From IMG/VR virus record IMGVR_UViG_2718218361_000001: a stretch of DNA of 18,292 bases; one strand, given 5' to 3'. Below are positions 1 to 17,728 of this stretch, in pieces. The position numbers and the translations under genes are program-made. The notes beneath the pieces are model-generated. The model saw only the letters and a list, made by a program, of their open reading frames with translations. It had not been told where the DNA came from and made no database searches. Source of the DNA: a virus. Taxonomy: Duplodnaviria; Heunggongvirae; Uroviricota; Caudoviricetes. Positions within the stretch are counted from its first letter, which is position 1, and each line of letters begins with the position of its first letter.

Positions 1-1374
1 ATGTTAGTTAGTAAAAACAACGAATTTAACACTAGCTCATTTATAGATAGTGGAAATTGTAATGAAAGAAAATCTTCTGAATCCATGGAGCTACTAGCTT
101 ATAGTATTATAAATTTAATTTGTAAGAAAGCTGCCTCAGGGACGTATCGCGGTGCTCTTGAAACTTTACAAAAAATGATGTCTGAATGTATATATCATGA
201 AGGCAACGCCTTTGTCATTATGGGAGTTGGAGAACAATTAAAACGTATTAAATATGAAGTTGGTGAAAATAACTTAAAGGTATTCAACGTACACTTTAAT
301 AATAATCACGAGTTAGTTAGTTCTGGTGAGCCTGACGTAATATGTTTAAGCAAGCAGGTCTGGGAAAATCTTCTCATTAAACTAAAGCTGGAAAACAATG
401 AAAATGTGTTTTCTGAAACTAAAAAATTATCGAATAAAAATAATGACGATCAGTTTTTTGAATGCGCTAAAAGAAATGAACAGAACCTTTTCGATAATAT
501 AAGAAAAAGTGATTTTCATGTTGGTTTACTTAAGCCAAGTAGTACGCGTAGTGTTATTTTAGAAACGCCGCCAAATGTCTGTATGGAATCACGTAATTCA
601 TATGAAAACAAAATAGATGAGATTTCATCTTTGTCAGAGTCAAAGGAACACCCCATAGATATTCAAGAAAAAAAAGATGCGTTTGTGAATGAGTTCAAGG
701 GGGTATTATTTGATAAAAATACAAGGTCTTCAGAGCTTCTGTTTAATTTTTATGAGTGTTGCTATAAGTTTTTACCAAGAGCTCAGCCTCAAGATAAAAT
801 CGATAGCTATAATTCAGCACTGCAAGCTTTTTCCATTTTTTGTTCATCTACGTTGACACATAATAATATAGGCTTTGATTTCAAATTATTTCCTGAAGTC
901 AAGCTGTCTGGAGAACATCTTGAAACGGTATTCAAATACAAAAATGGCGATGATGTCCGGGAGATAGCCAAAATTAACATTACTCTCCAAAAAGAAGAGG
1001 GTGGTTTATATAATTTACGTGGATTGGATTTTAAGGGGTGCTTCTTTTCTGGACAGAACTTCAGTAACTATGATATTCAATATGTGAACTGGGGAACGTC
1101 ATTGTTTGATGTTGATACTCCGTGTATTTTTAATGCGCCTGCTTACAACAAGAGTAATGAAAAATCATTAAAACCTGTGAGCGAAAACGGTTTAAGTGGA
1201 GTATTGACTGATCGTAATAATAAAATAAAACTCATCACGGGCGTGGCACCATTCGATGATATTTTATTTATGGATGATGACTTTGATGATAGTTCCTCTG
1301 AGGATGATCCCGTTGAGAATAGTCCTGTTGTGACTAGTCCCGTTGTATCAAGTTCTAAAAGCAGTTTTCAATGA
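1..1374 (+). CDS. Hypothetical low-GC protein (457 aa ORF), possibly 5'-truncated by the window edge; short pentapeptide-repeat-like stretch and acidic Ser/Asp-rich C-terminal tail
   Basis: Long uninterrupted ORF in an AT-rich segment. Translation contains YNLRG-LDFKG-CFFSG-QNFSN (pentapeptide-repeat-like) and a DDDFDDSSSEDD tail. ATG sits at position 1 so the true start cannot be confirmed. No recognisable catalytic motif. Confidence 0.55.
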   Translation: MLVSKNNEFNTSSFIDSGNCNERKSSESMELLAYSIINLICKKAASGTYRGALETLQKMMSECIYHEGNAFVIMGVGEQLKRIKYEVGENNLKVFNVHFNNNHELVSSGEPDVICLSKQVWENLLIKLKLENNENVFSETKKLSNKNNDDQFFECAKRNEQNLFDNIRKSDFHVGLLKPSSTRSVILETPPNVCMESRNSYENKIDEISSLSESKEHPIDIQEKKDAFVNEFKGVLFDKNTRSSELLFNFYECCYKFLPRAQPQDKIDSYNSALQAFSIFCSSTLTHNNIGFDFKLFPEVKLSGEHLETVFKYKNGDDVREIAKINITLQKEEGGLYNLRGLDFKGCFFSGQNFSNYDIQYVNWGTSLFDVDTPCIFNAPAYNKSNEKSLKPVSENGLSGVLTDRNNKIKLITGVAPFDDILFMDDDFDDSSSEDDPVENSPVVTSPVVSSSKSSFQ

Positions 1375-1530
1375 TTAATAAATGGCAATTTTTACAAAGA
1401 GATAATAACGTAGATTGAAACAATATGTATTATTGATTGAGTAAACGGGATTATTCTTCACACTACATCCATTTTAGTGTCACTACCAAAGAAAAAGGGG
1501 CTACGTTTTCATGTAACCCCTTGATTTATT

Positions 1531-1560
1531 TGGTGGGCTGGCAGTGACTGAATTGGTGCT
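1531..1560. repeat. Degenerate copy of the ssrA 3' end (att-core-like remnant)
   Basis: tatttggtgg-gctggcagtgactgaat here resembles tatttggtggagctggcgggagttgaac at the ssrA 3' end (17887-17915) and the second copy at 5706-5733. Alignment done by eye. Confidence 0.4.
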
Positions 1561-1643
1561 GTAATTGGTTGAAATATTTCATCTAATGTCTGGTTCAACT
1601 TTCCTTAGCTGCCTGAAAGTTTTTTGATCTTACCCAGCAATAA

Positions 1644-1745
1644 CAGCGTTACGGTGCACCACGCCTGACTGAAGAACTGCGTGCTCAGGGTTACCACTTC
1701 AACGTAAAACCGTGGCAGGAGGTCCGGACTGAAAAAACTGGTCAG
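1644..1745 (+). pseudogene. IS3-family transposase (OrfB-like) fragment
   Basis: Frame translation [22 protein letters not shown] matches, from memory, the conserved [22 protein letters not shown] block of IS911/IS3-type transposases. Only about 30 codons; flanked by stops; no start or RBS. Confidence 0.5.
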
Positions 1746-1758
1746 GACATTATCGGCG

Positions 1759-1880
1759 GTGGACGCACGGGTAGTCTGTAAACCGAACCGACTGGGGCGC
1801 AGTATGTGGCATCTTGTCGTGCTGTTGGAGGAGCTGTGCAAACGTGGTATTAACTTTCGTGCTCTGGCCCAATCTATATT
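1759..1880 (+). pseudogene. Serine recombinase (resolvase/invertase family) internal fragment
   Basis: Translation NRLGRSMWHLVVLLEELCKRGINFRALAQSI resembles the conserved resolvase/invertase block (LDRLGRS...L..L.ERGI.F.SL.DSI). Catalytic N-terminus and C-terminal HTH are absent. Confidence 0.55.
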
Positions 1881-2285
1881 TGCCCAACAATGGGGGGACG
1901 AATGCTGTAAAAGTAAAACAATCTGCGATCTCAAAGTTATTGTGTGATTTTTATGTGAGCAGAAGATATTCATCAGAAACGATTATGTAAATCATTTTAT
2001 TTTGCCAACGGCCTCATTGTCGAAAGAAAAGAATACGCCCGTATTTCCTGAATGGATTGACTTTTTTATCCAACCACACTTCAGCGCACTGCGTTTAAAA
2101 AATGCCTCATTCTTATGCGGAATATCATCATTTCATCATGATGTCTTTGATGAGCGGTGAACACAATACACTTGCGCTGTCTCTTCAGGATGAATCCCCT
2201 GGTCTGGTGCCTGTGGGCTGATGTTGCAGCAGAGCTAAGGTCGCTTAAACGCTACTCAGTATTCACTTTTCAGAGGATGAAATTT

Positions 2286-5200
2286 ATGAACAGGACCAGT
2301 CCCCATTATTGTCGCCGCTCAGTACTTTCCTTATTGATATCTGCCTTGATATATGCCCCGCCTGGGATGACGGCCTTCACTCCTGATGTTATTGGTGTGG
2401 TAAACGATGAGACTGTAGATGGCAGCCAAAGAGTAGATGAACGAGGTACAACAAATAACACTCATATTATCAACCATGGCCAGCAGAATGTTCATGGCGG
2501 GGTATCTAATGGAAGTCTTATTGAATCGGGTGGATATCAAGATGTAGGAAGTCATAACAATTTTGTGGGGCAGGCTAATAATACAACCATTAACGGAGGA
2601 AGACAGACAATTCATGACGGGGGCATTTCCACCGGTACGATAATCGACAGTGGCAATCAGGACGTTTATACAGGTGGTATCAGCAATGGAACGACAATTA
2701 AGGGTGGTAATTCACACATAAGTGGGGGGACTGCGAATGGAACCATCATTGATGGTGGAGGGCAGAAAGTAACAACTCAGGGGCATGTTGATGGTACAAC
2801 GATAAATAAGTCCGGTTATCAGGACATCACGCAAGGAAGTATTGCAACGAACACAATCATAAATGGTGGACGACAGTATGTTGAACAGAGCACAGTAGGA
2901 ACAACCACCATTAAAAATGGCGGTGAGCAAAGAGTATATGAAAGCCATGCGCTGGACACGACGATTGAAGGTGGAACTCAGTCTCTGAATAATAAGTCAA
3001 CGGCAAAAATACTCAGATCTATTCTGGTGGTACGCAAATTGTTGATTACACCAGCTCCTCGGATGTTATTGAAGTTTATTCCGGTGGCGTGCTTGATGTT
3101 AGTGGTGGTACGGCAACAAATGTTACCCAGCACGATGGTGCAATTTTAAAAACAAACACTAACGGTACGACGGTGAGCGGTACGAATAGTGAAGGTGCAT
3201 TCTCCATCCACAATCACGTGGCAGACAATGTGTTGCTGGAAAACGGTGGTCATTTAGACATAAACGCATATGGTTCGGCAAACAAGACGATTATTAAAGA
3301 TAAAGGAACAATGTCAGTTTTAACGAATGCTAAAGCTGATGCGACCCGAATAGATAACGGCGGGGTAATGGATGTTACCGGAAACGCGACCAATACCATA
3401 ATCAATGGTGGTACACAGAATATTAATAATCATGGTATTGCCACGGGTACCAATATCAACGGCGGAACGCAAAATATCAAGAGCGGCGGGAAAGCTGACA
3501 CGACAATTATATCCTCCGGGAGCCGGCAGGTTGTTGAGAAAGATGGTACGGCAACTGGCAGCAATATTAGCGCCGGAGGCTCGCTGATTGTCTATACCGG
3601 TGGTATTGCACATGGGGTTAACCAGGAGACGGGCAGTGCTTTAGTTGCCAACACGGGCGCAGGGACTGATATTGAAGGATACAACAAGCTCTCTCACTTC
3701 ACTATTACCGGAGGGGAGGCTAATTATGTTGTGCTGGAAAATACCGGCGAACTGACGGTAGTGGCTAAAACCTCGGCGAAAAATACTACCGTTGATGCTG
3801 GCGGTAAGCTGATTGTCCAGAAGGAGGCTAAAACAGATACCACCAGACTTAATAATGGTGGCGTTCTGGAGGTTCAGGACGGTGGTGAGGCTAAGCATGT
3901 TGAGCAACAATCCGGCGGCGCATTAATTGCTTCCACAACTTCCGGAACCCTTATCGAAGGAACCAACAGTTATGGTGATGCTTTCTACATCAGGAATTCA
4001 GAAGCTAAAAATGTAGTGCTGGAAAACGCTGGCTCATTAACAGTCGTCACTGGTTCCCGGGCAGTTGATACGATTATTAATGCCAACGGCAAAATGGATG
4101 TTTATGGAAAAGATGTTGGCACTGTACTCAATAGTGCTGGCACCCAAACAATATATGCCAGTGCCACTTCTGATAAAGCAAATATCAAAGGTGGCAAGCA
4201 AACGGTATATGGATTAGCCACTGAGGCAAATATCGAAAGTGGTGAACAAATTGTTGATGGTGGGTCAACAGAGAAAACACACATCAATGGTGGCACGCAA
4301 ACCGTTCAGAATTATGGTAAGGCAATCAATACCGATATCGTCTCTGGCCTACAACAAATTATGGCAAACGGGACAGCGGAAGGTTCCATTATTAATGGGT
4401 GTTCACAGGTAGTTAATGAGGGCGGTCTGGCTGAAAACTCGGTGCTTAATGACGGCGGCACACTCGATGTGCGGGAGAAAGGCAGCGCAACGGGGATACA
4501 GCAGAGTAGCCAGGACGCTTTGGTTGCAACCACCAGGGCGACGCGGGTCACAGGAACACGCGCGGATGGCGTCGCGTTCAGCATCGAGCAGGGTGCGGCG
4601 AACAATATCCTGCTGGCAAATGGCGGCGTGTTAACCATGGAGTCAGACACCTCTTCTGACAAAACACAGGTCAATACGGGCGGACGGGAGATCGTCAAAA
4701 CAAAAGCCACTGCGACAGGCACGACGCTCACCGGCGGCGAACAAATCGTCGAGGGGGTGGCGAATGAGACAACGATTAACGACGGCGGAATACAAACAGT
4801 TTCAGCTAACGGAGAGGCAATAAAAACAAAGATCAATGAAGGCGGTACGCTGACAGTTAACGATAATGGCAAAGCGACAGATATCGTCCAGAACAGCGGT
4901 GCCGCTCTCCAGACGAGCACGGCTAACGGTATTGAAATCAGCGGTACTCACCAGTACGGCACTTTTTCCATTTCCGGCAATTTAGCGACCAATATGTTGC
5001 TGGAAAATGGCGGTAATTTATTGGTATTAGCAGGTACCGAAGCTCGCGACTCCACGGTTGGCAGCGGTGGAGCCGCCAACGGCAGTTATCGCAGCAACGG
5101 GCTGGGCGGTCACATTGAAACCGGGATGCGATTTACCGATGGTAACTGGAACCTGACGCCGTATGCATCGTTAACGGGGGTTCACCGCTGATAACCCTGA

Positions 5201-5546
5201 ATATCATTTATCCAATGGCATGGAATCGAAATCAGTCGATACCCGCAGTTTATATCGTGAACTGGGTGCAACGCTGAGTTACAACATGCGTCTGGGGAAC
5301 GGTATGGAAGTTGAGCCGTGGCTGAAGGCGGCTGTGCGCAAAGAATTTGTCGATGATAACCGGGTGAAAGTGAATAGTGACGGTAATTTCGTCAATGATT
5401 TGTCGGGCAGACGTGGAATATACCAGGCAGGTATTAAAGCCTCATTCAGCAGTACGTTAAGCGGGCATCTTGGGGTGGGGTATAGCCATGGTGCCGGTGT
5501 GGAATCCCCGTGGAACGGGGTAGCTGGTGTGAACTGGTCGTTCTGA
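2286..5546 (+). pseudogene. Autotransporter adhesin (AIDA-I/self-associating type) disrupted by frameshifts
   Basis: ATG 2286 with GAGGA 8 nt upstream and a signal-peptide-like N-terminus (MNRTSPHYCRRSVLSLLISALIYA). About 900 aa of degenerate passenger repeats (IxGGxQ, NGGxL) spread over three reading frames. Frame changes sit at an A5 tract (3005-3009) and a G5 tract (5176-5180). C-terminus ends in an aromatic-rich barrel-like segment ...GVNWSF, but the barrel part looks short. Confidence 0.65.
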
Positions 5547-5555
5547 CCATCAACG

Positions 5556-5580
5556 AAAAAGCCCACATCTGTGGGCTTTC
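5556..5580 (+). terminator. Rho-independent terminator-like hairpin after the autotransporter gene
   Basis: GCCCAC-atct-GTGGGC stem-loop (5561-5576) followed by TTTC, 15 nt after the TGA at 5544-5546. A-run upstream means it could act in both directions. Confidence 0.5.
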
Positions 5581-5705
5581 ATGTCACCAGGAGCCGCGGC
5601 TCCTTTGCGTATCCTTTTATGTCTCTTCACCGTCTGGTCGGTGTCCTGCTGAGACTGCTAACTTCCTGTTTTTATTGGTGTTGTCCTTATACCGTCCAAT
5701 CATGA

Positions 5706-5733
5706 TTGGTGGGCTGGCGGAGTATGAATTTGC
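5706..5733. repeat. Degenerate ssrA 3'-end copy; candidate distal att site of the satellite
   Basis: ttggtgg-gctggcgg-agtatgaatttgc resembles ttggtggagctggcgggagttgaacccgc at the ssrA 3' end, roughly 24 of 30 positions by eye. It lies just outside the left arm-type repeats. Confidence 0.45.
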
Positions 5734-5781
5734 ATATTATATTGTTGTTTTTATTGTATATTTATTTTTATGGTCTTTATT

Positions 5782-5805
5782 GGTATACCTAAGCGTATAC
5801 CAATA
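5782..5805. repeat. Integrase arm-type-like repeats, left end of the satellite
   Basis: GGTATACCTAAGCGTATACCAATA matches CGTATACCTAAACGTATACCAATA at 17757-17780 at 22 of 24 positions. Contains two (G/C)GTATAC units 12 bp apart. Confidence 0.5.
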
Positions 5806-5897
5806 GCGGGGTGCAATACTTATTTAACTTAAAAAAAATCATCCCTAAATAGGTCGTTTTATATTCAAAAAACAAAAAAAATCTTTTTTAAATAAGT

Positions 5898-5975
5898 TGT
5901 TCACACTGTTCACTTAGGGTTTTTATCATTCAAAATCAAGGTAATAGAAGTTAACTGTATGGTGAAGAGTGAACA
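5898..5975. repeat. crr-like iteron cluster downstream of the primase gene
   Basis: TGTTCAC at 5898-5904 and 5907-5913, and inverted GTGAACA at 5969-5975. The P4 alpha-binding octamer is TGTTCACC (from memory). Confidence 0.5.
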
Positions 5976-6000
5976 GATAACTCTACATTCTTGCGCCAGC

Positions 6001-6026
6001 GAAAACAAAACCCGGCATCAGCCGGG
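6001..6026 (-). terminator. Rho-independent terminator for the primase operon
   Basis: CCCGGC-atca-GCCGGG hairpin (6011-6026) which on the minus strand is followed by TTTTGTTTTC, 12 nt after the primase stop codon (6038-6040). Confidence 0.65.
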
Positions 6027-6037
6027 TTAGTTGCAAA

Positions 6038-8371
6038 TTATTTTATTGTTGGCTCATCGCACTTGGGTAGCCAGTCTGCATTACTCTCTTCTTTTAAGGT
6101 GAGGTTAGTCTGCATTCCCTGATTAGTTCGCCGCTTCTCATAATGTAGCCCGTACTCCTTCAGCATAACTGGTAGCCCTTTGCCAAACATTGTCAGGCTG
6201 AGGGTATTTTTATAGCCATTAGCCTCCATGTATACGAGATAAGCATGGTAAAGGTATGTACGTGGCTGGCGCGGGACAATATTGGCGTTTCCCATAAACA
6301 TGCCGTTGGTGTCGGGTAATGCCTCAAGATAGCCACAAAAATCAAATGCTGGATCAGCATCACGCTTGATGGTGAGAGCCTCATCAGAATTCTGCTGCGA
6401 CTGAAGCAATGTTCTGGCACTCATCGGATCACTGAAACGCTGCATGAGCTGGCGAACAATCACAGCAAGTTCTTGAGCAATTTTATCTTTTAGCTGCGGA
6501 TCGCGTTCTTCCGGTGCTATCTGCTCAGGAAAATGCAGAATAACTCTCCGGCGAGACACACCACCACTGCGATCAGTGAAGCGCATAGGATTATTATTTA
6601 CGGCCAGGATAACCGCCGGAATATGTGTTGAATAAGCATTCTGATATTTGGGGTCCACAGATACTGCATCGCCACCGGTTATAGCCTTAAGCCCGGCGCC
6701 ATCGCCGCTCCACTTCTCCTGATCAGGCAGGCGAATAAGAGAAAAACCGATCAGAGCTGCACGTTCTCGCGGGGACTCCAGAGTTTCAATTGTCGCTGAG
6801 GTGGCGTTATCCTCTCCTGCAAGCATCGTTGCAATTTCAGCAAGGATACTTTTGCCACTTCCGCCAGGGCCAGTCACTTCCAGAAAGAGCTGCCAGTCAT
6901 AGCGGTTCGCCAGCACCATAAACAGCGCTGCGAGAATAATGTCGCGTTTTGCTGGCTTGCGCCCGGCTGCCCTGTCCAGCCAGCGCCAGAATGCCGGGGC
7001 ATGAGTTTCAAGCGTTTCCCCATTTACCGGTGGCGTGAAATCAACTTCACACAGGGTACGCAGCCACTTCTCTTTACAGTGCGGACTAAACAGCCCTGTT
7101 CGCGTATCGAGGACGCCATTACGAAAACCGATCAGATGACGTGCCGGATTTTGCTGCTGCGGAACAATTAACTTTAATGTTTCCACCAGTGAGGCAATCT
7201 TTCCTGAGGAAAACGGTGCACCGAGGCGCTGGAAAAGGGCTGCGACATCTCGGGCAAAATCAGACTGAGAAATCACTTTCCACGCCCCAGACTCATAGCG
7301 GGATAAAAGCTGCCCGTTCGGATCAACCGCCAGCGCATCCCTGTAATGCTCCCGAACCCTCTGAGCTTTTTCGCTGACACTCATCGCTGTGAATTCTGCT
7401 TCACTCATCGTGTCGAAAGGACTGGCGTTATGTGGCCTCAAAGCCTCAAGAATTGCCTTCCGGGTGGATTCCTCTCCGTAATGGGCAAGCGCATCATTCC
7501 AGTCACCAAAAACCGGTGGCAGCACAATGTCACACTGACACGCTTTTGCAGCAGCTTCAGCCCTGTTCTGGCCTGAACCATTCAGATCTCGGTCCGCTGC
7601 AATAATTAGCTGATACCCCGGATACTTGTTATGGGCAACGCTGGCCAGAGAAAGAAAGTTGACCGCCGAAAATGCCACCATGACGGCTTCTCCAGTCAGA
7701 TGATGAATGGTAAGCGCCGTGGCGTAGCCTTCCGTAATCCACATTCTTCTTACTGAACTCCCGCCCCCTTCTATCAGATGATAGGCCTCCTTAACCTGAC
7801 CTCCTTTAAGAAAACACTTGCTACCATTGCTACTGATAAGCTGAATATTCACCAGCTCCCCGTCAGCGTTATAGAGCGGGACGATCAAATCACCGGGGCG
7901 GAACATCACCCCACCGGTTTTATGAGCTGAAGTCAGCTCATGGCAAATATGTTCCGGGAAACCTTTATGTGTAAGATAAGTATTTCCGGCAGATTCGCGC
8001 GAGGCTTGCAGCAGTCGCGCGGCAAGTGCTGCCGCTGCATCTTTCCCGCTATTGGTATCGGCGGTTAACGTCCTGACTTCGGAATTAGCTATAGACAGGC
8101 CATGTGTCATTCCATGTATCCTGTCAGCTGCTTCACTGATATCCACATTCAGTGCCCTGGTGACAAGCGCTAAACCATCCCCGGCTCCGCACTGATTGCA
8201 GAACCATGTTCCACGTCCTTCCTGATCGTCGAAGCGAAAACGATCTTTACCGCCACAGACCGGACAAGGCTGATGGCGATTTTTCAATATATTCACGCCC
8301 AGCGCTGGCAGAATCTGAGCCCAGTGACCGCGGGCAGCCTTCACGGCCTGACTGACTTTCATTCCTGACAT
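6038..8371 (-). CDS. P4 alpha-type primase/helicase (phage/plasmid primase, P4 family), 777 aa
   Basis: ATG at 8371 with GAGGGAGAA 7 nt upstream. N-terminal zinc-binding CPVCGGKDRFRF...CNQCG, a primase-like central region, and Walker A GPGGSGKS in the C-terminal NTPase domain. Length equals P4 alpha as I recall it. The ORF track's upstream in-frame Met lacks an RBS. Confidence 0.9.
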   Translation of the reverse strand: MSGMKVSQAVKAARGHWAQILPALGVNILKNRHQPCPVCGGKDRFRFDDQEGRGTWFCNQCGAGDGLALVTRALNVDISEAADRIHGMTHGLSIANSEVRTLTADTNSGKDAAAALAARLLQASRESAGNTYLTHKGFPEHICHELTSAHKTGGVMFRPGDLIVPLYNADGELVNIQLISSNGSKCFLKGGQVKEAYHLIEGGGSSVRRMWITEGYATALTIHHLTGEAVMVAFSAVNFLSLASVAHNKYPGYQLIIAADRDLNGSGQNRAEAAAKACQCDIVLPPVFGDWNDALAHYGEESTRKAILEALRPHNASPFDTMSEAEFTAMSVSEKAQRVREHYRDALAVDPNGQLLSRYESGAWKVISQSDFARDVAALFQRLGAPFSSGKIASLVETLKLIVPQQQNPARHLIGFRNGVLDTRTGLFSPHCKEKWLRTLCEVDFTPPVNGETLETHAPAFWRWLDRAAGRKPAKRDIILAALFMVLANRYDWQLFLEVTGPGGSGKSILAEIATMLAGEDNATSATIETLESPRERAALIGFSLIRLPDQEKWSGDGAGLKAITGGDAVSVDPKYQNAYSTHIPAVILAVNNNPMRFTDRSGGVSRRRVILHFPEQIAPEERDPQLKDKIAQELAVIVRQLMQRFSDPMSARTLLQSQQNSDEALTIKRDADPAFDFCGYLEALPDTNGMFMGNANIVPRQPRTYLYHAYLVYMEANGYKNTLSLTMFGKGLPVMLKEYGLHYEKRRTNQGMQTNLTLKEESNADWLPKCDEPTIK

Positions 8372-8385
8372 GATGCAGTTCTCCC

Positions 8386-8709
8386 TCAGTGTAAAACTGG
8401 CTTTTTGATGTGACGGACGCATAACTCATCCATTACGGCTATTCCGAGCTGGGAGAGTGCGGGACAGGACATTAGAGGGCCGGATTCCATCAGGTCTGAA
8501 AGCAGGGCGCAGGCGATTTCCATGCCTTTTGTTTGCCCGTGCTGTCGCAGATAAAATCCTTCAAGCTCACGGGCAATAGCGGTTTCAATTTCATCCAGAG
8601 TCAGCTGCAGGTGGCGGTTTTGCTGATGGCAGGCACTCAGCCATGCGCAGGCTACCGCGCGGCGATACAACGCTACCCGAAGTGAAAGGGAAAGAGTGCG
8701 TGATTTCAT
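8386..8709 (-). CDS. Hypothetical protein (107 aa), immediately upstream of the primase
   Basis: ATG at 8709 with GGAGG 7 nt upstream. Start overlaps the stop of the preceding gene (ATGA). Stop lies 15 nt before the primase start. Confidence 0.6.
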
Positions 8710-8930
8710 TGCACCACCTCCATGTTCATCAGGTCATCCTGGCAACGTTGTACCACGCCATCAAGCTGCTCTGTCATCAGATAAATCAGGGAAACCAGTT
8801 GCTCACATTGAGCATTGGCAGGTTTTTCGTAGCAATCCTGAAGAACAGCCATTCCGGTGACAAGCTCCCCCACGTTACGAAGATGCTTCAGGCGGACAAT
8901 ATCGTCATAAGAGATTGCGGCGTGATTCAT
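8706..8930 (-). CDS. Hypothetical protein (74 aa)
   Basis: Internal ATG at 8930 with GGGAGG 7 nt upstream. Start overlaps the stop of the upstream 63-aa ORF. The longer ORF-track version (87 aa) lacks an RBS. Confidence 0.55.
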
Positions 8931-9121
8931 CACATCACCTCCCGGACAGGCAGGCGAGCAGCAAGGCAAAGCACATACTCATGGACCAGTGAAAGACGTG
9001 CATGATACTCATCGCTGGCGACAATACGCAGCATACTGATACGTGGTTTACGTTCTGCACGACGAACGGCGGCAAAAACAAATATAAATTGAGGATGTGA
9101 TGGGGCGAGGATCGTAGCCAT
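8930..9121 (-). CDS. Hypothetical small protein (63 aa), first gene of the coupled small-ORF cluster
   Basis: ATG at 9121 with GGAG 9 nt upstream. It is the C-terminal 63 codons of a 197-aa ORF whose upstream part has no RBS and a GC-rich, structured character. Confidence 0.4.
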
Positions 9122-9324
9122 AAGGGCAATCTCCAATAAGTAGCGGTTATTGCCACCACCAGAGCTGCAAATCTCATGGGTGATGGCCCGGACGGGGTTT
9201 GCAGTACCGGCCTTATTGGAAACCGGCCAGCCCGAAGGCTGCCCCGCCCGGACCACCATTATCTGACAGGAGCCACGGTGTAAGCACCACAGCCCGAAAA
9301 ATAGGTGTGCCTGAGCAACGACAT

Positions 9325-9346
9325 AAAAAAACACGCTCGACGCGTG
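9325..9346 (-). terminator. Candidate rho-independent terminator between the AlpA-like gene and the small-ORF/primase operon
   Basis: On the minus strand a CACGC-gtcga-GCGTG hairpin (9332-9346) is followed by a U7 run (A7 at 9325-9331 on plus). Stem is only 5 bp. Confidence 0.4.
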
Positions 9347-9474
9347 CTGTGTCGCCAATAAGTTACACGGGCTGCAAATCCCGGCTGCCGATTTTGCGGC
9401 AGCAGAAAAACTATAACTGGAAAGCTTGCCAGGACGCAAGCCACAAAAAAAGAGATGAGACTGCAAAGCCAGAT

Positions 9475-9735
9475 TCACGCATGGTCTCCTTGCTCGCGGG
9501 CTGCAATTCGCGCCGCCATCCATGCATTGACCTCCGACTGTACCCAGGCAACATTTTTTCCACCCAGGGAGATCTGCTGCGGGAAGGCATCACGGCTGAT
9601 AAGGTCGTAGATGGTTGAACGGGATAGCCCGCAAAGGTGCATCACTTCAGGTAATCGTATGAAGCGCTCCTGCTCAGTCGGAACCGGGAGCACCGGAGCA
9701 GCTGGTGCTGGGGTGGAAACGGAAATAGTATGCAT
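9475..9735 (-). CDS. AlpA/Vis-family phage transcriptional regulator (excisionase-like HTH), 86 aa
   Basis: ATG at 9735 with AGAGAGG 7 nt upstream. Translation [46 protein letters not shown] has the AlpA-type HTH signature. Confidence 0.8.
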
Positions 9736-10270
9736 CTCGCTACCTCTCTAATATGTTTTCAGTAGTCCGGACAATTCCATCCGGATTCAGGTAGTTCCTT
9801 ATTATGTTCATATAAGCGGCTCGCGCATGCTTTATTTAATTAGAGTGAAATATTGACTTCTCAAAAAATAAAACAGCTAAAAACCGGATAAAACGGACAA
9901 AAACAAATCATTCCCTCATGGAATATAATAAGGAGCTTCAAGAATAAAAAAGTCTATTACACCAAGCAGGATCGCCGCTCAAGTCTGTACCAGACCATAT
10001 CATTCCGGGCGTTACATCATAAGGATGAAAACAGCGCCGGAATAATAAAAGGGCCAAAAAACGTTCATAAAAAACAGTTCATCATATGTATTAATTAAGT
10101 TAATGGCTAAAAAAATTAAATTACCCGCATCCTTCCGAATTTATCCGGATGTGTTTAGTGAGCATCAGACAGATTCATTTTTATGGATATTTTCCTGAAA
10201 TGCAACCGAGTGTAGGGAGGTTAAGTGTTGAATTTTTAAACAGACATAAGACACATTTTATACTGTATAT

Positions 10271-10484
10271 TGAATAGTGTTGAATACGTGTGAATAGTGG
10301 TGAGGAATAAAAATCCAGTAATAAACTGAAATAAATATAGCGATTTATATGAAAAACAAATATAAGTTTAAATTTATCTCTGTGAACAGTCATGAACAGT
10401 AGATGACCACTTTTATTTAAACCCTACACTCCTTAACCACATGTATTTACTATTCTTTTATGAAAGTGAACAGTAGTGAATAGT
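10271..10484. repeat. ori-like iteron cluster in the AT-rich divergent region
   Basis: About seven copies of GTGAA(C/T)AGT at 10271, 10281, 10291, 10382, 10393, 10466, 10476. Their reverse complement contains TGTTCAC/TATTCAC, the same core as the repeats at 5898-5975. The two clusters are about 4.4-4.5 kb apart. Confidence 0.5.
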
Positions 10485-10549
10485 ATGTATTAAAGGAAGG
10501 GTGAAGATCAGACATGACACCTTTCTCTGGCTAGCCAGAACAAGGTCAT

Positions 10550-10567
10550 TGTTCAGTCACTGGCACA
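10550..10567 (+). promoter_or_regulatory. Candidate Ogr/Delta-dependent late promoter element (TGT-N12-ACA dyad) upstream of the Sid-like gene
   Basis: TGT(10550-10552)-tcagtcactggc-ACA(10565-10567), 73-90 nt upstream of the ATG at 10640. P2/P4 late promoters carry such a dyad near -55 (established knowledge). No clear -35; -10 is weak. Confidence 0.4.
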
Positions 10568-10639
10568 ATCCTCATCGGTAGTGCGCTTGTATGGGCACCG
10601 GCACAATTGACACAACAACAAAACACTACCGGAGCAGCC

Positions 10640-11392
10640 ATGACAACTGTTAACCAGATCCCTGATGCAAACATTACACCCTCCCTCCCACCGAAAATTC
10701 GCGAAGCGGTAGAAAAAGTTAAAGCAGCAAAAGCTGTCTGGCAGGAAGAACGGCGAATACAAACTGAAGCCGCTGCAATGACTGAAACTATCCGTAAACG
10801 TCAGGAAGATACAAAAACGGAGACGCAGGCGCTTAATGATGAATGGCGAAACCTGTTTCGTGAGAATCAGGGGAATATGACGCCACGAATGAAAAAACTG
10901 CGGGCAGAAATCGCCCTGGGACGCGAAACACTTGATGAGTTCGAAGATTTGCTTGAAGCTCACGCCGCAGAAAAAGAATTCCTGCCCTGGAAAACTGCGG
11001 ATGCTGCAAACCGCTACATCAGCGAACATAACCGGCTGATTGAAACTCATGCAGAGTGGCTCTGGAATGAGTTTATGAAGGAACACGGCCAGAAACTTAT
11101 TCAGATCCTTGGATTGCTGAAAATGACTCTGGGGCGAAGCGCTTCTTCCGTTATCGGCGTAGTTCATACCGTAAACGACCCCGAAAGTGTGCTGAAGCAA
11201 TTTATCAGCGAGCAACTCACCGCTCCGGCACTGTCCTGTAACGTATCTTCAACGGATGTTATTGCCCTGCCGGGGATTAGCATTTATGCGGACGATAAAG
11301 CCCTACAGGATGCCAGACAATCACCCAGCCCTGCAGCGCGTTCCCGGATGCTTAAACAGCGTGACATGGTTAAAGGGGAAGAGAAGGGATGA
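10640..11392 (+). CDS. Sid/Psu-family protein, candidate capsid size-determination (Sid-like), 250 aa
   Basis: ATG at 10640 with GGAG 5 nt upstream (ORF-track start 10607 is a TTG without RBS). First gene of the late operon as in P4. Shares the NEFMKEHGQKL block with the Psu-like product (ENFMSEHGNAL) and MTPRMKKLRAEIA with the paralog at 12237 (VTPEMKALRAEYL). Stop overlaps the next start (ATGA). Confidence 0.7.
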   Translation: MTTVNQIPDANITPSLPPKIREAVEKVKAAKAVWQEERRIQTEAAAMTETIRKRQEDTKTETQALNDEWRNLFRENQGNMTPRMKKLRAEIALGRETLDEFEDLLEAHAAEKEFLPWKTADAANRYISEHNRLIETHAEWLWNEFMKEHGQKLIQILGLLKMTLGRSASSVIGVVHTVNDPESVLKQFISEQLTAPALSCNVSSTDVIALPGISIYADDKALQDARQSPSPAARSRMLKQRDMVKGEEKG

Positions 11393-11943
11393 ATCCTGGA
11401 AACATTACTAAGGAAGCTCTCAACAACTATCGCGCGGAGATAAAAAGCTGGCTGACACTACGTAATGTGCAAAGTACCAGCCAACTTCGTCTGGCGGCTC
11501 TGCTGGATACTGAAGAAAAACCGGCAGCATATGCCAGCCAGCTTGAGAATCTTCGTGAGCGTCTTGCTCTCCTCGAATGGCAGATTAACTGCGCCGCTAG
11601 GGACGGTCTTTATGCTCACCAGATTGTGCTGGAAAGCTGTGTTACAAGCGCAACTGAAAACTTCATGAGCGAGCATGGTAATGCACTCACTGACGCTCTG
11701 GCTCCTTTTCTTTGCGCACCATACGGGCTTGAGGCGGCAATGAAAATATTACGCACCGCTGTAGTCCGACAAACCGAAATCCGTACTCCTGTAATTTCAG
11801 CAGCATATAAGAGCGTTATCGACGAAACCGGATTAACGGTGGATGCATCAATGCGAGCTGATGCTTCAGCCATTTTCACCCCGGCAAAACATAAAGTTTT
11901 TCTGGCCCGCCTCAACAGGCTTAATGAAAAAGGAGGGTACTGA
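11389..11943 (+). CDS. psu: Psu-like protein (polarity suppression / capsid decoration family), 184 aa
   Basis: ATG at 11389 preceded by a purine-rich stretch. Blocks EHGNALTDALAP and FTPAKHKVFLAR resemble my recollection of P4 Psu (QHGTALAAALAP, FTPAQNMIFSRK). Size close to P4 Psu (190 aa). Confidence 0.75.
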   Translation: MNPGNITKEALNNYRAEIKSWLTLRNVQSTSQLRLAALLDTEEKPAAYASQLENLRERLALLEWQINCAARDGLYAHQIVLESCVTSATENFMSEHGNALTDALAPFLCAPYGLEAAMKILRTAVVRQTEIRTPVISAAYKSVIDETGLTVDASMRADASAIFTPAKHKVFLARLNRLNEKGGY

Positions 11944-11944
11944 T

Positions 11945-12217
11945 ATGGCCCTGAAATGTCCTGAATGTGGCACGGTCGCACACGCCAGAACCAGCGCCTA
12001 TGAAGCTCCATCGGTTAAACGCTCATGGTATCAGTGCCAGAATCTTGAATGCTCCTGCACATTTACTGCCCTGGAAAGTGTGGACACGATAATTATGAAG
12101 CCCCATAAACCAGTGGCGCCTGAACCTGAATCACAGAGCGATTCTCTTGTACGTCAGCCGCATACACTGGGCCGCTACGGTTCAGCCTGTACCCTTAAAG
12201 ACCGTCATGCACAATAA
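11945..12217 (+). CDS. Ogr/Delta-family zinc-finger late transcription activator, 90 aa (single domain)
   Basis: ATG at 11945 with GGAGG 8 nt upstream, 1 nt after the Psu stop. CPECGTVAHARTS...WYQCQNLECSCTFTALESV matches the Ogr/Delta signature (recalled P2 Ogr: CPLCQHAAHARTS...YHQCQNVNCSATFITYESV). Confidence 0.85.
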   Translation: MALKCPECGTVAHARTSAYEAPSVKRSWYQCQNLECSCTFTALESVDTIIMKPHKPVAPEPESQSDSLVRQPHTLGRYGSACTLKDRHAQ

Positions 12218-12236
12218 ATTGGGGAGGAACAAAAAT

Positions 12237-13049
12237 ATGACAGAACAACAATTGACGGAAAACCAGATTCAGGCCGCAACCGGACACGTAGTAACACTCC
12301 TCGCGAGGGCAAAAAAACCGCTTCAGGATGCGGATTGGCTCATGAATTTGCCTGCAAATGAAATAGCCCGCGAGACGGAAAAACTGACAAAAAGCCTTTC
12401 CTCCGACTGGCAGTCCCGAATTATCGACCTTTACCAAAAAATGCAGGCCTGGGTGGAGGCCAGACAGGCCGAAGAAGCAGCCATTGAGAACCTTCGGGCT
12501 CTGCGCCAGCATCAGACCGAAACTGAGCAGGCCAGCAAAGACAATCGGGCGCAGTTCAGGGAACTGCTTAACCAGAGCGGCGGCATCGTAACGCCGGAGA
12601 TGAAAGCTCTCCGGGCTGAGTATCTGGAACAACAGGAAACAGCCACAGAACTCGCCGGGCTGATTACTGAAAAAGAAGATCAGCTGCCGGTACTGGCTCA
12701 AGCGACCACGCGTAAAGCAAACGTCTATATAAACTGCCATCATGGCATCACTGAGGAGCGTATCGATGAGCTTTTACGAGACTTTTTTATTTTCCACGGT
12801 GCCGAATTGAGCGGCCTGCTCAGGATGAAGTACAGACAATTTGAGCGATATAGCTCAGCACATATACCGGGCATTATTGAAGGCACAAATGATGCAGATA
12901 CGCTGTATCGTGAATTTATCCTGAATCTAATGCTGAAGTGGACGAATGAAATATTACCGTTAAGATTCCGGGACGACGTGATGAGCCTGACCGGTTCAGC
13001 TCCGGTATCAGGATCGCATGACGACAGAAAAAAAAGTAAGCTGTTTTGA
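12237..13049 (+). CDS. Second Sid/Psu-family paralog, 270 aa, function unassigned
   Basis: ATG at 12237 with GGGGAGG 9 nt upstream (ORF-track start 12147 lacks an RBS). Coiled-coil-like; shares sequence blocks with the Sid-like gene at 10640. Followed by a strong terminator. Confidence 0.7.
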   Translation: MTEQQLTENQIQAATGHVVTLLARAKKPLQDADWLMNLPANEIARETEKLTKSLSSDWQSRIIDLYQKMQAWVEARQAEEAAIENLRALRQHQTETEQASKDNRAQFRELLNQSGGIVTPEMKALRAEYLEQQETATELAGLITEKEDQLPVLAQATTRKANVYINCHHGITEERIDELLRDFFIFHGAELSGLLRMKYRQFERYSSAHIPGIIEGTNDADTLYREFILNLMLKWTNEILPLRFRDDVMSLTGSAPVSGSHDDRKKSKLF

Positions 13050-13073
13050 CCTGAACAGAAAAGCTCACTTAAG

Positions 13074-13095
13074 CCCGGCCAGTGCCGGGTTTTTT
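13074..13095 (+). terminator. Rho-independent terminator of the late operon
   Basis: CCCGGC-cagt-GCCGGG hairpin (13074-13089) followed by T6 (13090-13095), 25 nt after the stop at 13047-13049. Confidence 0.7.
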
Positions 13096-13236
13096 GATGT
13101 CTATAGCCTGAGTGCATGTCTATACTGCATGAAATCGCATGACTTTATGCACTTGCATTTTTACTTCCCAGACCAGATAAGGCGCGGTTTAGAGCCTATC
13201 ATGCAACTGCATGAAAACCACTCCCTAAAGCGGGCA

Positions 13237-13255
13237 GGCGTGGCGGGGCTACGAG
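13237..13255. other. Candidate cos-like site (P2/186-family cohesive-end-like sequence)
   Basis: GGCGTGGCGGGG matches the first 12 nt of the P2/186-type 19-nt cohesive end as I recall it (GGCG[A/T]GGCGGGGAAAGCA-). The remaining 7 nt diverge. Position between the late operon and the cargo matches where cos sits in P4. Confidence 0.3.
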
Positions 13256-13629
13256 CGCGCGCTTCGAGGTAAAAGGATGCCGAGCATACAACTCATCGAT
13301 AATGCGGTAGGGTAAATAAGGGGGGGGGCTTGCTATTTTGTACGCTGTAAGGAAGCAAAAGGAAGTCAGTGAGCTAGGGTTAAACAACCCAGCGTATGAG
13401 GTTAAAGTCTAAAATTGAGAACAGCCGTATATGGAGTAATAAAAAGGTGAGGTTGAATCTTTGAGAGGCTGTTTATCAAGGCATAAACCTCTATAGGATG
13501 CATGGTTTTGCATGTGTTTAAATGTTACGCCAATTTAGGCCAACGCCTTTAGGGCGTGGCCTATTTCCATCTTTGCAACTCCATCAAATGCGTCTTCATG
13601 ATGAAGATGAGGATTAGGCGGAAATTGAA

Positions 13630-15399: not shown

Positions 15400-16502
15400 G
15401 TTACCCAATCTCCTGTTTCTGATTTGAAAATTCTATCAATAAAAGTATCAAAAGAAATTTTATGATCAACTTCTTTAGGATAAATGAAGGTTATTCTGGG
15501 GTCATTTACTGTATTATTTATATCTTGCTTGCTTTGATTGTTGTAGCAAAAAACAAATACTTTTAGTGTTGGATTACTTAAAGATCTTTTTATTATTTCA
15601 AGAATGTGCTCGTCTTGAAATGAAAACCCAAAACAAATTAATACAGTTTGTGGTTTCTCTAATTCATAGCTTAATAATCTTAAGCTCTGATAGTAGTGTT
15701 GCTGAAATACTGTTTCTGAAAACTTTTCTTTGGTCGGATTAACTATCGCGAGTGAGTTATAGTATGATTTGAATTCTTCAAGAGAATTTTGGTCATTAGC
15801 ATTTAAATCCAAGTAATCAGCAAGATCATCGTTAGTTGTATTTAGGGTAATTACTAAATCATCTATGGTTTTATCTGTCTCTAAATTTATTAATTCAGGT
15901 GAAACGCTTGGGTAGTTGATGCTTATTGTTTCATTCTCATCTCTTTTCCATGAGACCGAACCATGCATTTTAATTAAATTGATAGTTGGTAACTCATGTT
16001 TGTACATATCATGAGTTCCTTGATGCCAAGTAGTAATATGAAAATTACTAATGTTTAATCTTCTGTTTTTAAAACCTATAGCACCATCATTGAAATGGAA
16101 TGTTTTCTTAGCTAATGCATTGTCTGCTGCTGTTTCAAAAAAAAGATCATAGTTAGTTGTGAAAATATTGGCTCGTCTTATTTGATTGGAACCTTTTTTT
16201 TCTAATAAAGTAACAAGTTCATCTAGAAAATCTGTATAGCTATTTATTGTTGAGGTGTATTTTTTGTTTTCTACACTTGGCTCAATGCAAAATGTTTTTC
16301 TAATGATTTTATTGAAATAAGAACATAAGATAAAATCCTTAACATCGATACAATCTTTATGCGTTAATAATGTCTCATAAGTGGTGTTTTCAGCAAGCCA
16401 CAGCGTTGGTATATACGATGCTGAAGCTCCTGAGCCAAATAGAAAGTTAATATTTTTATCATAAATATTTGATGCTTTGCATGGGAATTCTCTCGTGCTC
16501 AT
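15387..16502 (-). CDS. SIR2-like (sirtuin-fold, predicted NADase) protein, 371 aa; first gene of the cargo pair
   Basis: ATG at 16502 with AAGGA 8 nt upstream, only 10 bp after the integrase stop. Motifs FLFGSGASAS (glycine-rich loop), TTNYD and MHGS (His-Gly) are typical of SIR2-family domains. AT-rich like its partner. Confidence 0.85.
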   Translation of the reverse strand: MSTREFPCKASNIYDKNINFLFGSGASASYIPTLWLAENTTYETLLTHKDCIDVKDFILCSYFNKIIRKTFCIEPSVENKKYTSTINSYTDFLDELVTLLEKKGSNQIRRANIFTTNYDLFFETAADNALAKKTFHFNDGAIGFKNRRLNISNFHITTWHQGTHDMYKHELPTINLIKMHGSVSWKRDENETISINYPSVSPELINLETDKTIDDLVITLNTTNDDLADYLDLNANDQNSLEEFKSYYNSLAIVNPTKEKFSETVFQQHYYQSLRLLSYELEKPQTVLICFGFSFQDEHILEIIKRSLSNPTLKVFVFCYNNQSKQDINNTVNDPRITFIYPKEVDHKISFDTFIDRIFKSETGDWVTWTN

Positions 16503-16512
16503 TTTTATATCC

Positions 16513-17706: not shown

Positions 17707-17728
17707 TGTGGCCGCTCCTTCATGAGTT

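What the first reader, a model, noticed from the sequence alone, without database searches (positions are those of the whole stretch)
1531..5733. Degenerate copies of the ssrA 3' end at about 1531 and 5706 suggest serial island insertions
Both sites resemble the ssrA 3' end and resemble each other (ttggtgggctggc...tgaat). Each new integration at ssrA duplicates the core and pushes older islands outward, after which they decay. The DNA between the two copies holds only pseudogenes (transposase and recombinase fragments, broken autotransporter), which fits an older island.
Basis: partly seen in the sequence, partly recalled or inferred. Interest (0 to 1): 0.45.

Follow-up and report, generated by a model that had tools for sequence, protein, structure and literature searches.

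The report
Nested island scars beside tmRNA gene
The two short ssrA-like sequences are real attachment-site scars left by mobile elements that inserted one after another at the 3' end of the E. coli tmRNA gene; this layout is already well documented (the same scars flank CP4-57 in E. coli K-12), so the finding is correct but ordinary.

Summary
The window is E. coli S21, smpB/ssrA to ypjCB. TTGGTGGGCTGGC occurs exactly twice, at 1530 and 5706.

Site 2 (5706) is the distal junction (attR) of an intact 12.2-kb P4-like satellite (5713-17889), whose integrase lies next to ssrA. A strain without the satellite has intact ssrA at exactly this position.

Site 1 (1530) is a fossil attR. Its right arm is homologous to the K-12 CP4-57 attR arm. 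Its left flank is the ogr-side arm of a P2-like prophage, which in other E. coli directly abuts intact ssrA. One IMG/VR contig carries the same junction undecayed.

Serial insertion at ssrA is therefore supported. Two points need correcting:
- The "degeneracy" is mostly not decay. The missing base is U357 of tmRNA. It is absent from 54 of 55 junctions of this family, whatever lies to the left, so it most likely arrives with the element. Published work shows that this U-less copy inactivates tmRNA when CP4-57 or CP4So excises.
- The DNA between the sites is not one island. It is a composite remnant: CP4-57-type arm, IS3 scar, invertase fragment, broken ypjA, and an ssrA trailer/terminator.

The phenomenon is already known.

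The parts
17891..18253 (-). ssrA (tmRNA), intact. U357 corresponds to the + strand A at 17897.
   Evidence: ARAGORN; Rfam RF00023, 295.8 bits, full length.
17890..17905 (+). attL core of the resident satellite: TTGGTGG (block 1), then A (U357), then GCTGGCGG (block 2). It forms the functional 3' end of ssrA.
   Evidence: Sequence; alignment with site 2 and with the empty site.
17707..17889 (-). Integrase-side arm of the satellite. It carries an element-supplied ssrA terminator (aaaaaagcccgcagggc...gcgggcttt) and two AA(G/A)CGTATACC arm-type repeats.
   Evidence: Sequence; repeat scan gave 3 hits against 0.33 expected, all of them at the two ends of the satellite.
16513..17706 (-). P4-type tyrosine integrase (397 aa), 61% identical to K-12 IntA.
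   Evidence: Pfam Arm-DNA-bind_3, Phage_int_M and Phage_integrase; BLASTP against IntA.
5713..17889 (.). Intact P4-like satellite, the newest insertion. It carries primase-helicase, Icd-like, C4 RNA/isrK, psu, an ogr/delta-like gene, and a SIR2 plus HerA-like defence pair.
   Evidence: RefSeq annotation; Rfam C4, isrK and c4-a1b1; Pfam; window 6164-6265 (query 460-561 of the construct) matches the P4 crr at 72.5%. Absent from strain RM10809-3, whose flanks are 98.6% identical.
5706..5730 (+). Site 2, the attR of the satellite: TTGGTGG, then a U357-less ssrA mimic GCTGGCGG-AGTATGAATT. An AAGCGTATACC arm repeat lies at 5791-5801.
5552..5705 (-). 'flank150', an ssrA 3' trailer with a bidirectional terminator. 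It abuts intact ssrA in genomes without an insertion at this junction.
   Evidence: Present in 5416 of 5426 E. coli. Duplicated as 185-nt direct repeats at both ends of the APEC O18 ssrA prophage. Flank-like sequence sits next to ssrA in E. albertii, Proteus, Providencia and Xenorhabdus.
2286..5546 (+). ypjA/EhaD autotransporter pseudogene, with a frameshift and a 1.3-kb internal deletion relative to K-12.
   Evidence: RefSeq; Pfam AIDA repeats and Autotransporter beta-domain; BLAST against K-12.
1711..1878 (+). Pin-like serine invertase fragment (pinH type).
   Evidence: RefSeq 'recombinase family protein, partial'; Pfam Resolvase, 4.4e-8, profile positions 48-101 only.
1630..1718 (+). IS3-family transposase fragment. 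It marks the point where homology to the intact relative of site 1 ends.
   Evidence: 88-92% hits to IS3-family transposase genes (H25, H64). Homology to L056 ends at 1614.
1530..1614 (+). Site 1, a fossil attR of an older CP4-57-type island: core TTGGTGG, a U-less mimic GCTGGCAGTGACTGAAT (about 3 substitutions), and the far-side arm.
   Evidence: 77-nt ungapped homology to the K-12 CP4-57 attR arm. Arm-only score 33 against 15.4 +/- 2.4 for shuffles (maximum 28 of 500); BLAST E = 2e-7. 89% identity over 146 nt to L056.
1469..1529 (-). Remnant of the ogr-side arm of a P2-like prophage, including a terminator. This is the sequence that lay 3' of ssrA when the older island integrated.
   Evidence: 97.7% identical to DNA directly abutting intact ssrA in many E. 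coli. In strain S1 that DNA sits next to ogr of a P2-like prophage.
1..1374 (+). ypjCB (DUF5507/DUF5508), 32-35% GC, intact here. It lies outside the att-bounded interval.
   Evidence: RefSeq; Pfam; composition profile.

Best explanation
The window records at least four successive insertions of mobile elements at the 3' end of ssrA. Each left a junction, and the oldest lies furthest from the gene.

(1) A P2-like prophage integrated with its ogr end next to ssrA. Only 61 nt of its arm survive (1469-1529).

(2) A CP4-57-type island with a P4-type integrase integrated into the regenerated ssrA. This created site 1, which reads P2 arm | TTGGTGG | U-less mimic plus far arm (1530-1614).

(3) DNA carrying an ssrA trailer/terminator (5552-5705), ypjA and a tail-fibre-type invertase came to lie next to ssrA. 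It most likely arrived as the ssrA-proximal end of an Eco48X/APEC-O18-type prophage. An IS3-associated deletion then fused its remnant to the far arm of the step-2 island and removed both elements' integrases.

(4) A P4-like satellite integrated in the S21 lineage and created site 2.

Mechanism. A P4-type tyrosine integrase recombines the element's attP with the ssrA 3' end. The attP carries TTGGTGG followed by an imperfect ssrA mimic that lacks U357 (GCTGGCGGAGTnTGAAT). As a result ssrA stays intact at attL, and the U-less copy is deposited at the distal junction.

Status of each step. Shown: the junction identities, the empty site, the homology of the arms, and the link between U-less copies and element type. 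Inferred: the origin of step 3, the exact order of deletions, and the position of strand exchange.
For: - Empty site. RM10809-3 has intact ssrA exactly where site 2 lies, with identical left flank.
- At that same junction, seven genomes show sequence to the right of TTGG(TGG) that co-varies with the resident element. These are S21, AF57 and FDAARGOS_1249 (P4-like), K-12 (CP4-57), and WG5 and CV261 (O157-type).
- Integrase domains, and 61% identity to IntA. Arm repeats occur only at the two ends of the satellite.
- Site 1: the left flank abuts intact ssrA in other E. coli at 97.7% identity.
- Site 1: the right arm is homologous to the CP4-57 attR arm.
- Site 1: the undecayed counterpart L056 has P2 D/ogr on one side and reverse-transcriptase-like and DUF932 (YfjQ-like) island genes on the other.
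- 54 of 55 IMG/VR junctions lack the A. 42 of the 55 have another element's ssrA-proximal arm on the left, meaning they are tandem arrays.
- The APEC O18 ssrA prophage carries flank150 at both ends, with cargo genes and a recombinase fragment between flank150 and its tail-fibre genes.
- Literature: tandem arrays at tRNA and tmRNA genes (PMC4383910); U357-less attR of CP4-57, CP4So, OI-108 and Eco48X (PMC10107115 Table 1; PMC5148205).
Against: - The interval 1531-5705 has no integrase and no attL of its own, so step 3 rests on analogy.
- flank150 could instead be the native ssrA trailer. It is present in 5416 of 5426 genomes, in E. albertii, and next to ordinary chromosomal genes in Proteus faecis. 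If so, site 1 lying distal to it would require a rearrangement.
- The pin fragment in the window shows no DNA homology to the one in APEC O18.
- No free attP form was found in plasmid or phage collections. That attP lacks U357 is therefore inferred from junctions, not observed.
- Published excision experiments place the exchange 5' of U357. This does not fit a simple exchange within TTGGTGG.
Confidence: 0.85

Rival explanations
1. Both sites are displaced copies of the host's own ssrA 3' end. Each was perfect when displaced and has since degenerated by neutral mutation.
For: - Site 1 does carry extra substitutions relative to L056 and differs between strains. S21 reads TTGGTGGGCTGGCAGTGAC and RM10809-3 reads TTGTTGAGCTGGCGGTGTC.
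- AF57 and FDAARGOS_1249 carry the same element but differ by a TGG deletion.
- One junction, L015, retains the A.
Against: - The same 1-nt gap (U357) is present at site 1, at site 2, at the K-12 attR, and at 54 of 55 junctions with unrelated left flanks.
- The bases after GCTGGCGG (AGTnTGAAT against ssrA's GAGTTGAACC) are conserved within an element family and differ between families. That pattern does not fit independent decay.
Confidence: 0.08
2. flank150 (5552-5705) is the native ssrA trailer, and the block from ypjA to site 1 never lay between ssrA and its trailer. On this view site 1 reached its position by rearrangement, or by integration into a secondary ssrA-like target such as a displaced fragment. 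It would not reflect simple outward pushing.
For: - flank150 is nearly universal in E. coli and is present in E. albertii.
- Flank-like sequence lies next to ssrA in distant Enterobacterales, including one case followed by ordinary chromosomal genes.
- In APEC O18 the distal copy is followed directly by glaH upstream DNA.
Against: - The APEC O18 prophage shows that this trailer is carried in an attP-sized 185-nt repeat.
- Flank-like arms are followed by phage tail genes in Providencia, Xenorhabdus, Enterobacter soli, L046 and L052.
- No second flank150 copy and no inversion signature exist in S21 or K-12.
- Site 1's orientation matches ssrA.
Confidence: 0.15
3. Site 1 is a chance match and only site 2 is real.
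For: Site 1 against ssrA scores 21, which 49.5% of shuffled windows reach. Its score ranks among random hits.
Against: - Site 1 against the site-2 30-mer: 0 of 200 shuffles reach the observed score.
- 77-nt arm homology to the CP4-57 attR.
- 146 nt at 89% identity to L056, spanning both sides of the core.
- The left flank is 97.7% identical to DNA abutting intact ssrA elsewhere.
Confidence: 0.02

Closest known systems
CP4-57 cryptic prophage of E. coli K-12 and its attL/attR at ssrA
   Same: - Same chromosomal junction: the flank ...ACCGTCCAATCATGA followed by TTGGTGGGCTGGCGGAGT.TGAAT.
- Same U357-less attR.
- Related P4-type integrase, 61% identical.
- K-12 also carries site 1, ypjA, pinH and ypjCB at 97% identity.
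   Different: The resident element in S21 is a 12.2-kb P4-like satellite (primase, psu, an ogr/delta-like gene, C4 RNA, SIR2/HerA) rather than the 22-kb CP4-57. Its far arm diverges from the CP4-57 arm after 25 nt.
CP4So of Shewanella oneidensis, and the 'phage regulatory switch' that inactivates tmRNA on excision (PMC5148205, PMC10107115)
   Same: An attR that lacks the U of the acceptor-stem G:U pair (CGCCAGC-CCACCA), with a P4-type integrase next to ssrA.
   Different: Excision and its outcome were not tested for the S21 element. The window also holds a second, fossil copy.
Tandem genomic-island arrays at tRNA and tmRNA genes (Islander; Williams 2003 as cited in PMC4383910 and PMC10107115)
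   Same: A regenerated target gene with displaced, target-like fragments marking island ends, and several elements stacked at one gene.
   Different: Islander's criterion requires an integrase for each island. The older interval here has lost its integrase, so it is a degraded array.
Eco48X / APEC O18-type ssrA prophage and O157 OI-108
   Same: They use the same ssrA end. Their displaced copy lacks 5 nt (CGCCAGC-----CA), as seen here in CV261 and APEC O18. They carry the flank150 trailer.
   Different: These are full prophages or a different island family. Only a possible remnant (flank150, ypjA, pin fragment) is present in the window.

Membership tests
P4-type-integrase island at ssrA (CP4-57 family): resident element 5713-17889 | A tyrosine integrase with the P4-type arm-binding N-terminal domain, encoded directly 3' of the target gene | tested here: met
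   Pfam Arm-DNA-bind_3, Phage_int_M and Phage_integrase. The gene starts 184 nt from the ssrA end. 61% identity to IntA.
P4-type-integrase island at ssrA (CP4-57 family): resident element 5713-17889 | The element is bounded by the intact target gene and a target-like direct repeat in the same orientation | tested here: met
   TTGGTGG plus GCTGGCGG at 17890 and at 5706. Site 2 against ssrA: 0 of 200 shuffles reach the score.
P4-type-integrase island at ssrA (CP4-57 family): resident element 5713-17889 | An unoccupied site exists in a close relative, with the breakpoints at the repeat | tested here: met
   RM10809-3 and three other listed genomes have ssrA abutting the same flank.
P4-type-integrase island at ssrA (CP4-57 family): resident element 5713-17889 | The element can excise and integrate | not testable with these tools
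   No attP form was found in plasmid or phage collections.
P4-like satellite | The P4 gene set: alpha-type primase-helicase, psu, a delta/ogr-like gene, the C4 immunity RNA, and crr-like repeats | tested here: met
   RefSeq products; Rfam C4 86.1 bits, c4-a1b1 and isrK; Pfam primase domains; 72.5% match to the P4 crr.
Fossil CP4-57-type attR (site 1) | Homology to a known attR that extends beyond the ssrA-like core into the element arm | tested here: met
   77 nt against the K-12 CP4-57 attR, p <= 0.002 on the arm alone. 146 nt at 89% identity to L056.
Fossil CP4-57-type attR (site 1) | The outer flank is DNA that elsewhere lies directly 3' of intact ssrA | tested here: met
   97.7% identity across a single contiguous alignment of flank plus ssrA in at least 30 listed E. 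coli records. Alignment shown.
Tandem island array in the Islander sense (interval 1531-5705 as an island) | Each member has its own integrase gene as well as its own target-gene fragment | tested here: not met
   There is no integrase between 1531 and 5705. The interval holds only a resolvase fragment, an IS3 fragment and the ypjA pseudogene. It is a degraded composite and not a definable island.
tmRNA-inactivating 'phage regulatory switch' | The attR copy lacks U357, so that excision can transfer the defect into ssrA | tested here: met
   Sites 1 and 2 both read GCCAGC-CCACCA on the ssrA strand. This matches Table 1 of PMC10107115.
tmRNA-inactivating 'phage regulatory switch' | Excision actually yields ssrA lacking U357 and loss of trans-translation | not testable with these tools
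   Shown only for K-12 CP4-57 and for CP4So, in the literature (PMC10107115, PMC5148205).

The most novel reading that the evidence does not exclude
The U357-less ssrA mimic is a conserved, element-borne part of attP in this integrase family. It is not something acquired after integration, as PMC10107115 suggests. Integration and excision are then resolved on opposite sides of U357. Alternatively, the overlap region spans U357 and heteroduplex segregation followed by selection decides the outcome. Either way, every new integrant keeps a working tmRNA, while loss of the element tends to disable it. That would act as a built-in retention device or switch, and it would apply to the S21 satellite as well.
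Probability: 0.35. Interest if true: 0.5.

Novelty: already known. Interest (0 to 1): 0.22.

Why it matters
The finding confirms that the DNA downstream of ssrA in E. coli is a layered record of insertions, and it gives exact boundaries for the S21 satellite. This helps annotation: it places the island ends and explains why ypjA, pinH and the small fragments are debris.

One point goes beyond routine. Many independent junctions suggest that the tmRNA-disabling U-less copy travels with the element. If that holds, it bears on how these islands are retained and on how the published 'rescue-pathway switch' evolved.

Tried and rejected
- Fuzzy-regex scan of all loci timed out. I replaced it with seeded alignment.
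- Williams 2003 and Wang 2009 could not be read because they are not held. I used their content only as cited in PMC10107115 and PMC5148205.
- I searched for a free attP by BLASTing a reconstructed attP against plasmids and phages. No alignment spanned the junction.
- None of the 55 IMG/VR loci had terminal repeats, and their geometry fits tandem arrays rather than circles.
- I searched for further ssrA fragments between ypjCB and lhgO in strain S21. None were found.
- I tested whether the window's pin fragment is homologous at DNA level to the recombinase fragment in the APEC O18 prophage. No match.
- I tested whether any E. coli genome has ssrA abutting the whole site-1 left flank up to ypjCB. 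Only the proximal 61 nt (1469-1529) are shared, and they turned out to be a P2-like arm.
- Chance as an explanation for site 1 is rejected.
Full report
**Identity of the window.** The 18,292-nt window is 100% identical to E. coli S21 (NZ_CP010230.1, 2222010-2240301, reverse strand). ssrA lies on the - strand at 17891-18253 and is full length (ARAGORN; Rfam tmRNA 295.8 bits). Its 3' end reads TGGTGGAGCTGGCGGGAGTTGAACC on the + strand from 17891, so anything inserted at that end extends toward lower coordinates. RefSeq annotation, moving away from ssrA, gives:
- an integrase, a SIR2 protein, an ATPase, an ogr/delta-like protein, psu, an Icd-like protein and a primase-helicase;
- then the autotransporter beta-domain fragment, the ypjA pseudogene, a small hypothetical ORF, a partial recombinase, and ypjCB.

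**Checking the observation.** TTGGTGGGCTGGC occurs exactly twice, at 1530 and 5706, both in the ssrA orientation. I compared each site with 200 dinucleotide-shuffled windows.
- Site 2 against the last 40 nt of ssrA scores 29. The null maximum is 20.8 +/- 1.9 (largest 28), and 0 of 200 shuffles reach 29.
- Site 1 against ssrA scores 21, which 49.5% of shuffles reach.
- Site 1 against site 2 scores 30, which 0 of 200 shuffles reach.

The sequences are therefore real and non-random as a pair. Site 1 would not be detectable from ssrA alone.

**Site 2 is the distal junction of a resident P4-like satellite.** Strain RM10809-3 has flanks 98.6% identical to the window but lacks window 5713-17889. Its intact ssrA 3' end sits exactly where site 2 lies, next to the same flank ...ACCGTCCAATCATGA. 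The inserted 12.2 kb has these features:
- a P4-type integrase (Arm-DNA-bind_3, Phage_int_M, Phage_integrase; 61% identical to K-12 IntA) that starts 184 nt from ssrA;
- a P4-type primase-helicase, C4 antisense RNA with isrK and c4-a1b1, and a crr-like region;
- AA(G/A)CGTATACC repeats found only at its two ends, 3 hits against 0.33 expected.

**The 'degeneracy' of site 2 is not decay.** At this same chromosomal junction, seven genomes read as follows:

| Genome | Element | Sequence at the junction |
|---|---|---|
| RM10809-3 | no insertion | intact ssrA |
| S21 | P4-like | TTGGTGG-GCTGGCGG-AGTATGAATTTGC |
| AF57 | P4-like | ...AGTTTGAATAAAT |
| FDAARGOS_1249 | P4-like | TTGGCTGGCGGAGTTTGAAT |
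| K-12 | CP4-57 | TTGGTGGGCTGGCGGAGTCTGAATTGGTTG |
| WG5 | O157-type | TTGGTGGCTGGCGTCCCTG |
| CV261 | O157-type | TTGGCTGGCGTCCCTG |

The sequence to the right of TTGG(TGG) follows the element type.

I then scanned IMG/VR with the pattern TTGGTGGN{0,1}GCTGGCGGAGTNTGAAT. It returned 55 junctions, and 54 of them lack the extra base. Their left flanks fall into at least eight unrelated classes:
- 22 are CP4-57-type integrase-side arms;
- 12 are P4-like integrase-side arms;
- 8 are P2-like ogr arms;
- 7 are the E. coli trailer (flank150);
- 6 are other flanks.

tblastn shows P4-like primase and integrase genes on the element side and, in several cases, another integrase on the left. One example is L060, which reads 96% IntA-like gene | arm | core | satellite. 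These junctions are tandem arrays. An arm that previously abutted a working ssrA now abuts a copy without the A, so the U-less copy is most simply explained as part of the incoming attP.

**The missing base is U357.** The missing + strand A at the position of 17897 corresponds to U357 of tmRNA. U357 is the U of the acceptor-stem G:U pair. The literature already records this:
- Table 1 of PMC10107115 lists CGCCAGC-CCACCA for K-12 CP4-57, CP4So and others, and CGCCAGC-----CA for O157 OI-108 and RS218 Eco48X.
- That paper shows that CP4-57 excision produces tmRNA lacking U357, abolishes trans-translation and switches ribosome rescue to ArfA.
- PMC5148205 shows the same single-base loss for CP4So.

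**Site 1 is a fossil junction of the same kind.**
- Its right arm aligns without gaps over 77 nt to the K-12 CP4-57 attR arm. The arm-only score is 33 against 15.4 +/- 2.4 for shuffles (maximum 28 of 500), and pairwise BLAST gives E = 2e-7.
- I built a chimeric query from the left flank of site 1 joined to ssrA. It aligned as one contiguous piece (query 140-400, 97.7%) in many E. coli genomes.
- In strain S1 those 61 nt lie between ogr of a P2-like prophage and intact ssrA.
- IMG/VR contig L056 carries the same junction undecayed. It is 89% identical to window 1469-1614, with P2 D/ogr genes on one side and a reverse-transcriptase-like gene plus a DUF932/YfjQ-like gene (CP4-57-type cargo) on the other. 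Its core reads GGCGGAGTCTGAAT where S21 has GGCAGTGACTGAAT.
- Homology to L056 stops at 1614, just before an IS3-family fragment.
- Site 1 varies between strains; RM10809-3 reads TTGTTGAGCTGGCGGTGTC. That is what a neutral fossil should look like.
- The site-1 region is present in 3124 of 5426 complete E. coli genomes, including K-12.

**What lies between the two sites.** The interval contains no integrase. It holds:
- the old far arm (1537-1614);
- an IS3 scar (about 1630-1718);
- a resolvase/invertase fragment (1711-1878);
- ypjA with a frameshift and a 1.3-kb deletion relative to K-12;
- a 154-nt ssrA trailer with terminator, 'flank150' (5552-5705).

flank150 is nearly universal in E. coli, present in 5416 of 5426 genomes. 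In APEC O18, a 41-kb prophage lies between ssrA and glaH and is bounded by ~185-nt direct repeats. Each repeat consists of the last 29 nt of ssrA plus flank150, and the distal copy lacks TCCAC. Flank-like sequences sit next to ssrA in E. albertii, Proteus, Providencia, Xenorhabdus and Enterobacter soli, and several of these are followed by phage tail genes.

My reading is that flank150, ypjA and the pin fragment are the ssrA-proximal remnant of such a prophage, later fused by an IS-associated deletion to the older island's far arm. This step is an inference. The rival view, that flank150 is the native trailer, cannot be excluded, and I give it 0.15.

**An unresolved point.** Published excision products lack U357, which places the exchange on the ssrA-body side of U357, within CCGCCAGC. 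The natural junctions imply that integration leaves U357 with ssrA, which places the exchange within CCACCAA. Two explanations would reconcile these:
- the overlap region spans U357, producing heteroduplex products, and selection then favours the chromosome with a working ssrA;
- exchange can occur in either identity block.

The single junction that retains the A (L015) fits either. No free attP could be recovered to settle the question.

**Verdict.** Two corrections apply: the copies are largely element-borne mimics and not decayed host ends, and the interval is a composite remnant and not one island. The architecture, the U357-less attR and tandem stacking at the tmRNA gene are all established in the literature (PMC4383910, PMC5148205, PMC10107115, and Williams 2003 as cited there). 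K-12 itself carries both sites. Novelty is low, and interest is modest apart from the question of which side of U357 the exchange occurs on.

Noticed in passing
window 13630-16502 (- strand): The satellite's cargo is a SIR2-like protein (371 aa) next to a HerA/DUF87-type ATPase (592 aa), at 30-34% GC. This looks like a SIR2-HerA-type anti-phage pair sitting in the variable slot of a P4-like satellite.
   Followed up: partly
window 9176-9416 (- strand): Rfam finds C4 antisense RNA (86.1 bits), isrK (72.9 bits) and the c4-a1b1 target (48.7 bits) clustered together. This is the P1/P4-type immunity RNA module inside the satellite.
   Followed up: no
window 1-1374: ypjCB (DUF5507 plus DUF5508, 32-35% GC) is an intact 457-aa ORF in S21. 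It is annotated as a pseudogene in K-12 (internal stop) and in RM10809-3 (frameshift). It occupies the place where the body of the P2-like prophage should be.
   Followed up: partly
window about 5061-5073, against L003 24990-26298: ypjA in S21 has lost about 1.3 kb that is present in K-12, in addition to a frameshift near 3000-3150. K-12 ypjA is intact.
   Followed up: partly
L015 (IMGVR_UViG_2681813146_000008), oriented position 1660: This is the only one of the 55 junctions that keeps the A (TTGGTGGAGCTGGCGGAGTTTGAAT). It lies next to the E. coli trailer. It may be the reciprocal product of an exchange on the other side of U357.
   Followed up: no
L145 about 31180-31365 and L004 12001-12215 (E. 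coli APEC O18): A 41-kb prophage between ssrA and glaH is bounded by ~185-nt imperfect direct repeats covering the last 29 nt of ssrA plus its trailer and terminator. The distal copy lacks TCCAC. This strain has no ypjA, ypjCB or ileY.
   Followed up: partly
L002 1692-3252 (RM10809-3) and L001 5170-5245: The neighbouring tRNA-Ile gene (ileY) is a second integration hotspot. RM10809-3 has a tyrosine integrase next to it. Its 3' end (TTGGTGGCCCTTGCTGGACTTGAACC) superficially resembles the ssrA end.
   Followed up: no
L065-L144 (80 species, smpB-ssrA loci): In the 43 of the 80 loci where my pattern located the ssrA end, mostly Enterobacterales, the gene is followed by a mobile-element-type arm in nearly every case. 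The arms are CP4-57-type, P4-like, P2-like or trailer-type. A truly unoccupied ssrA end appears to be rare.
   Followed up: partly
L002 about 5528-5555, against window 1530-1556: The site-1 alleles differ at 5 of 19 positions between two strains whose surrounding DNA is about 98.6% identical. This points to local hypervariability or to recombination between alleles.
   Followed up: no
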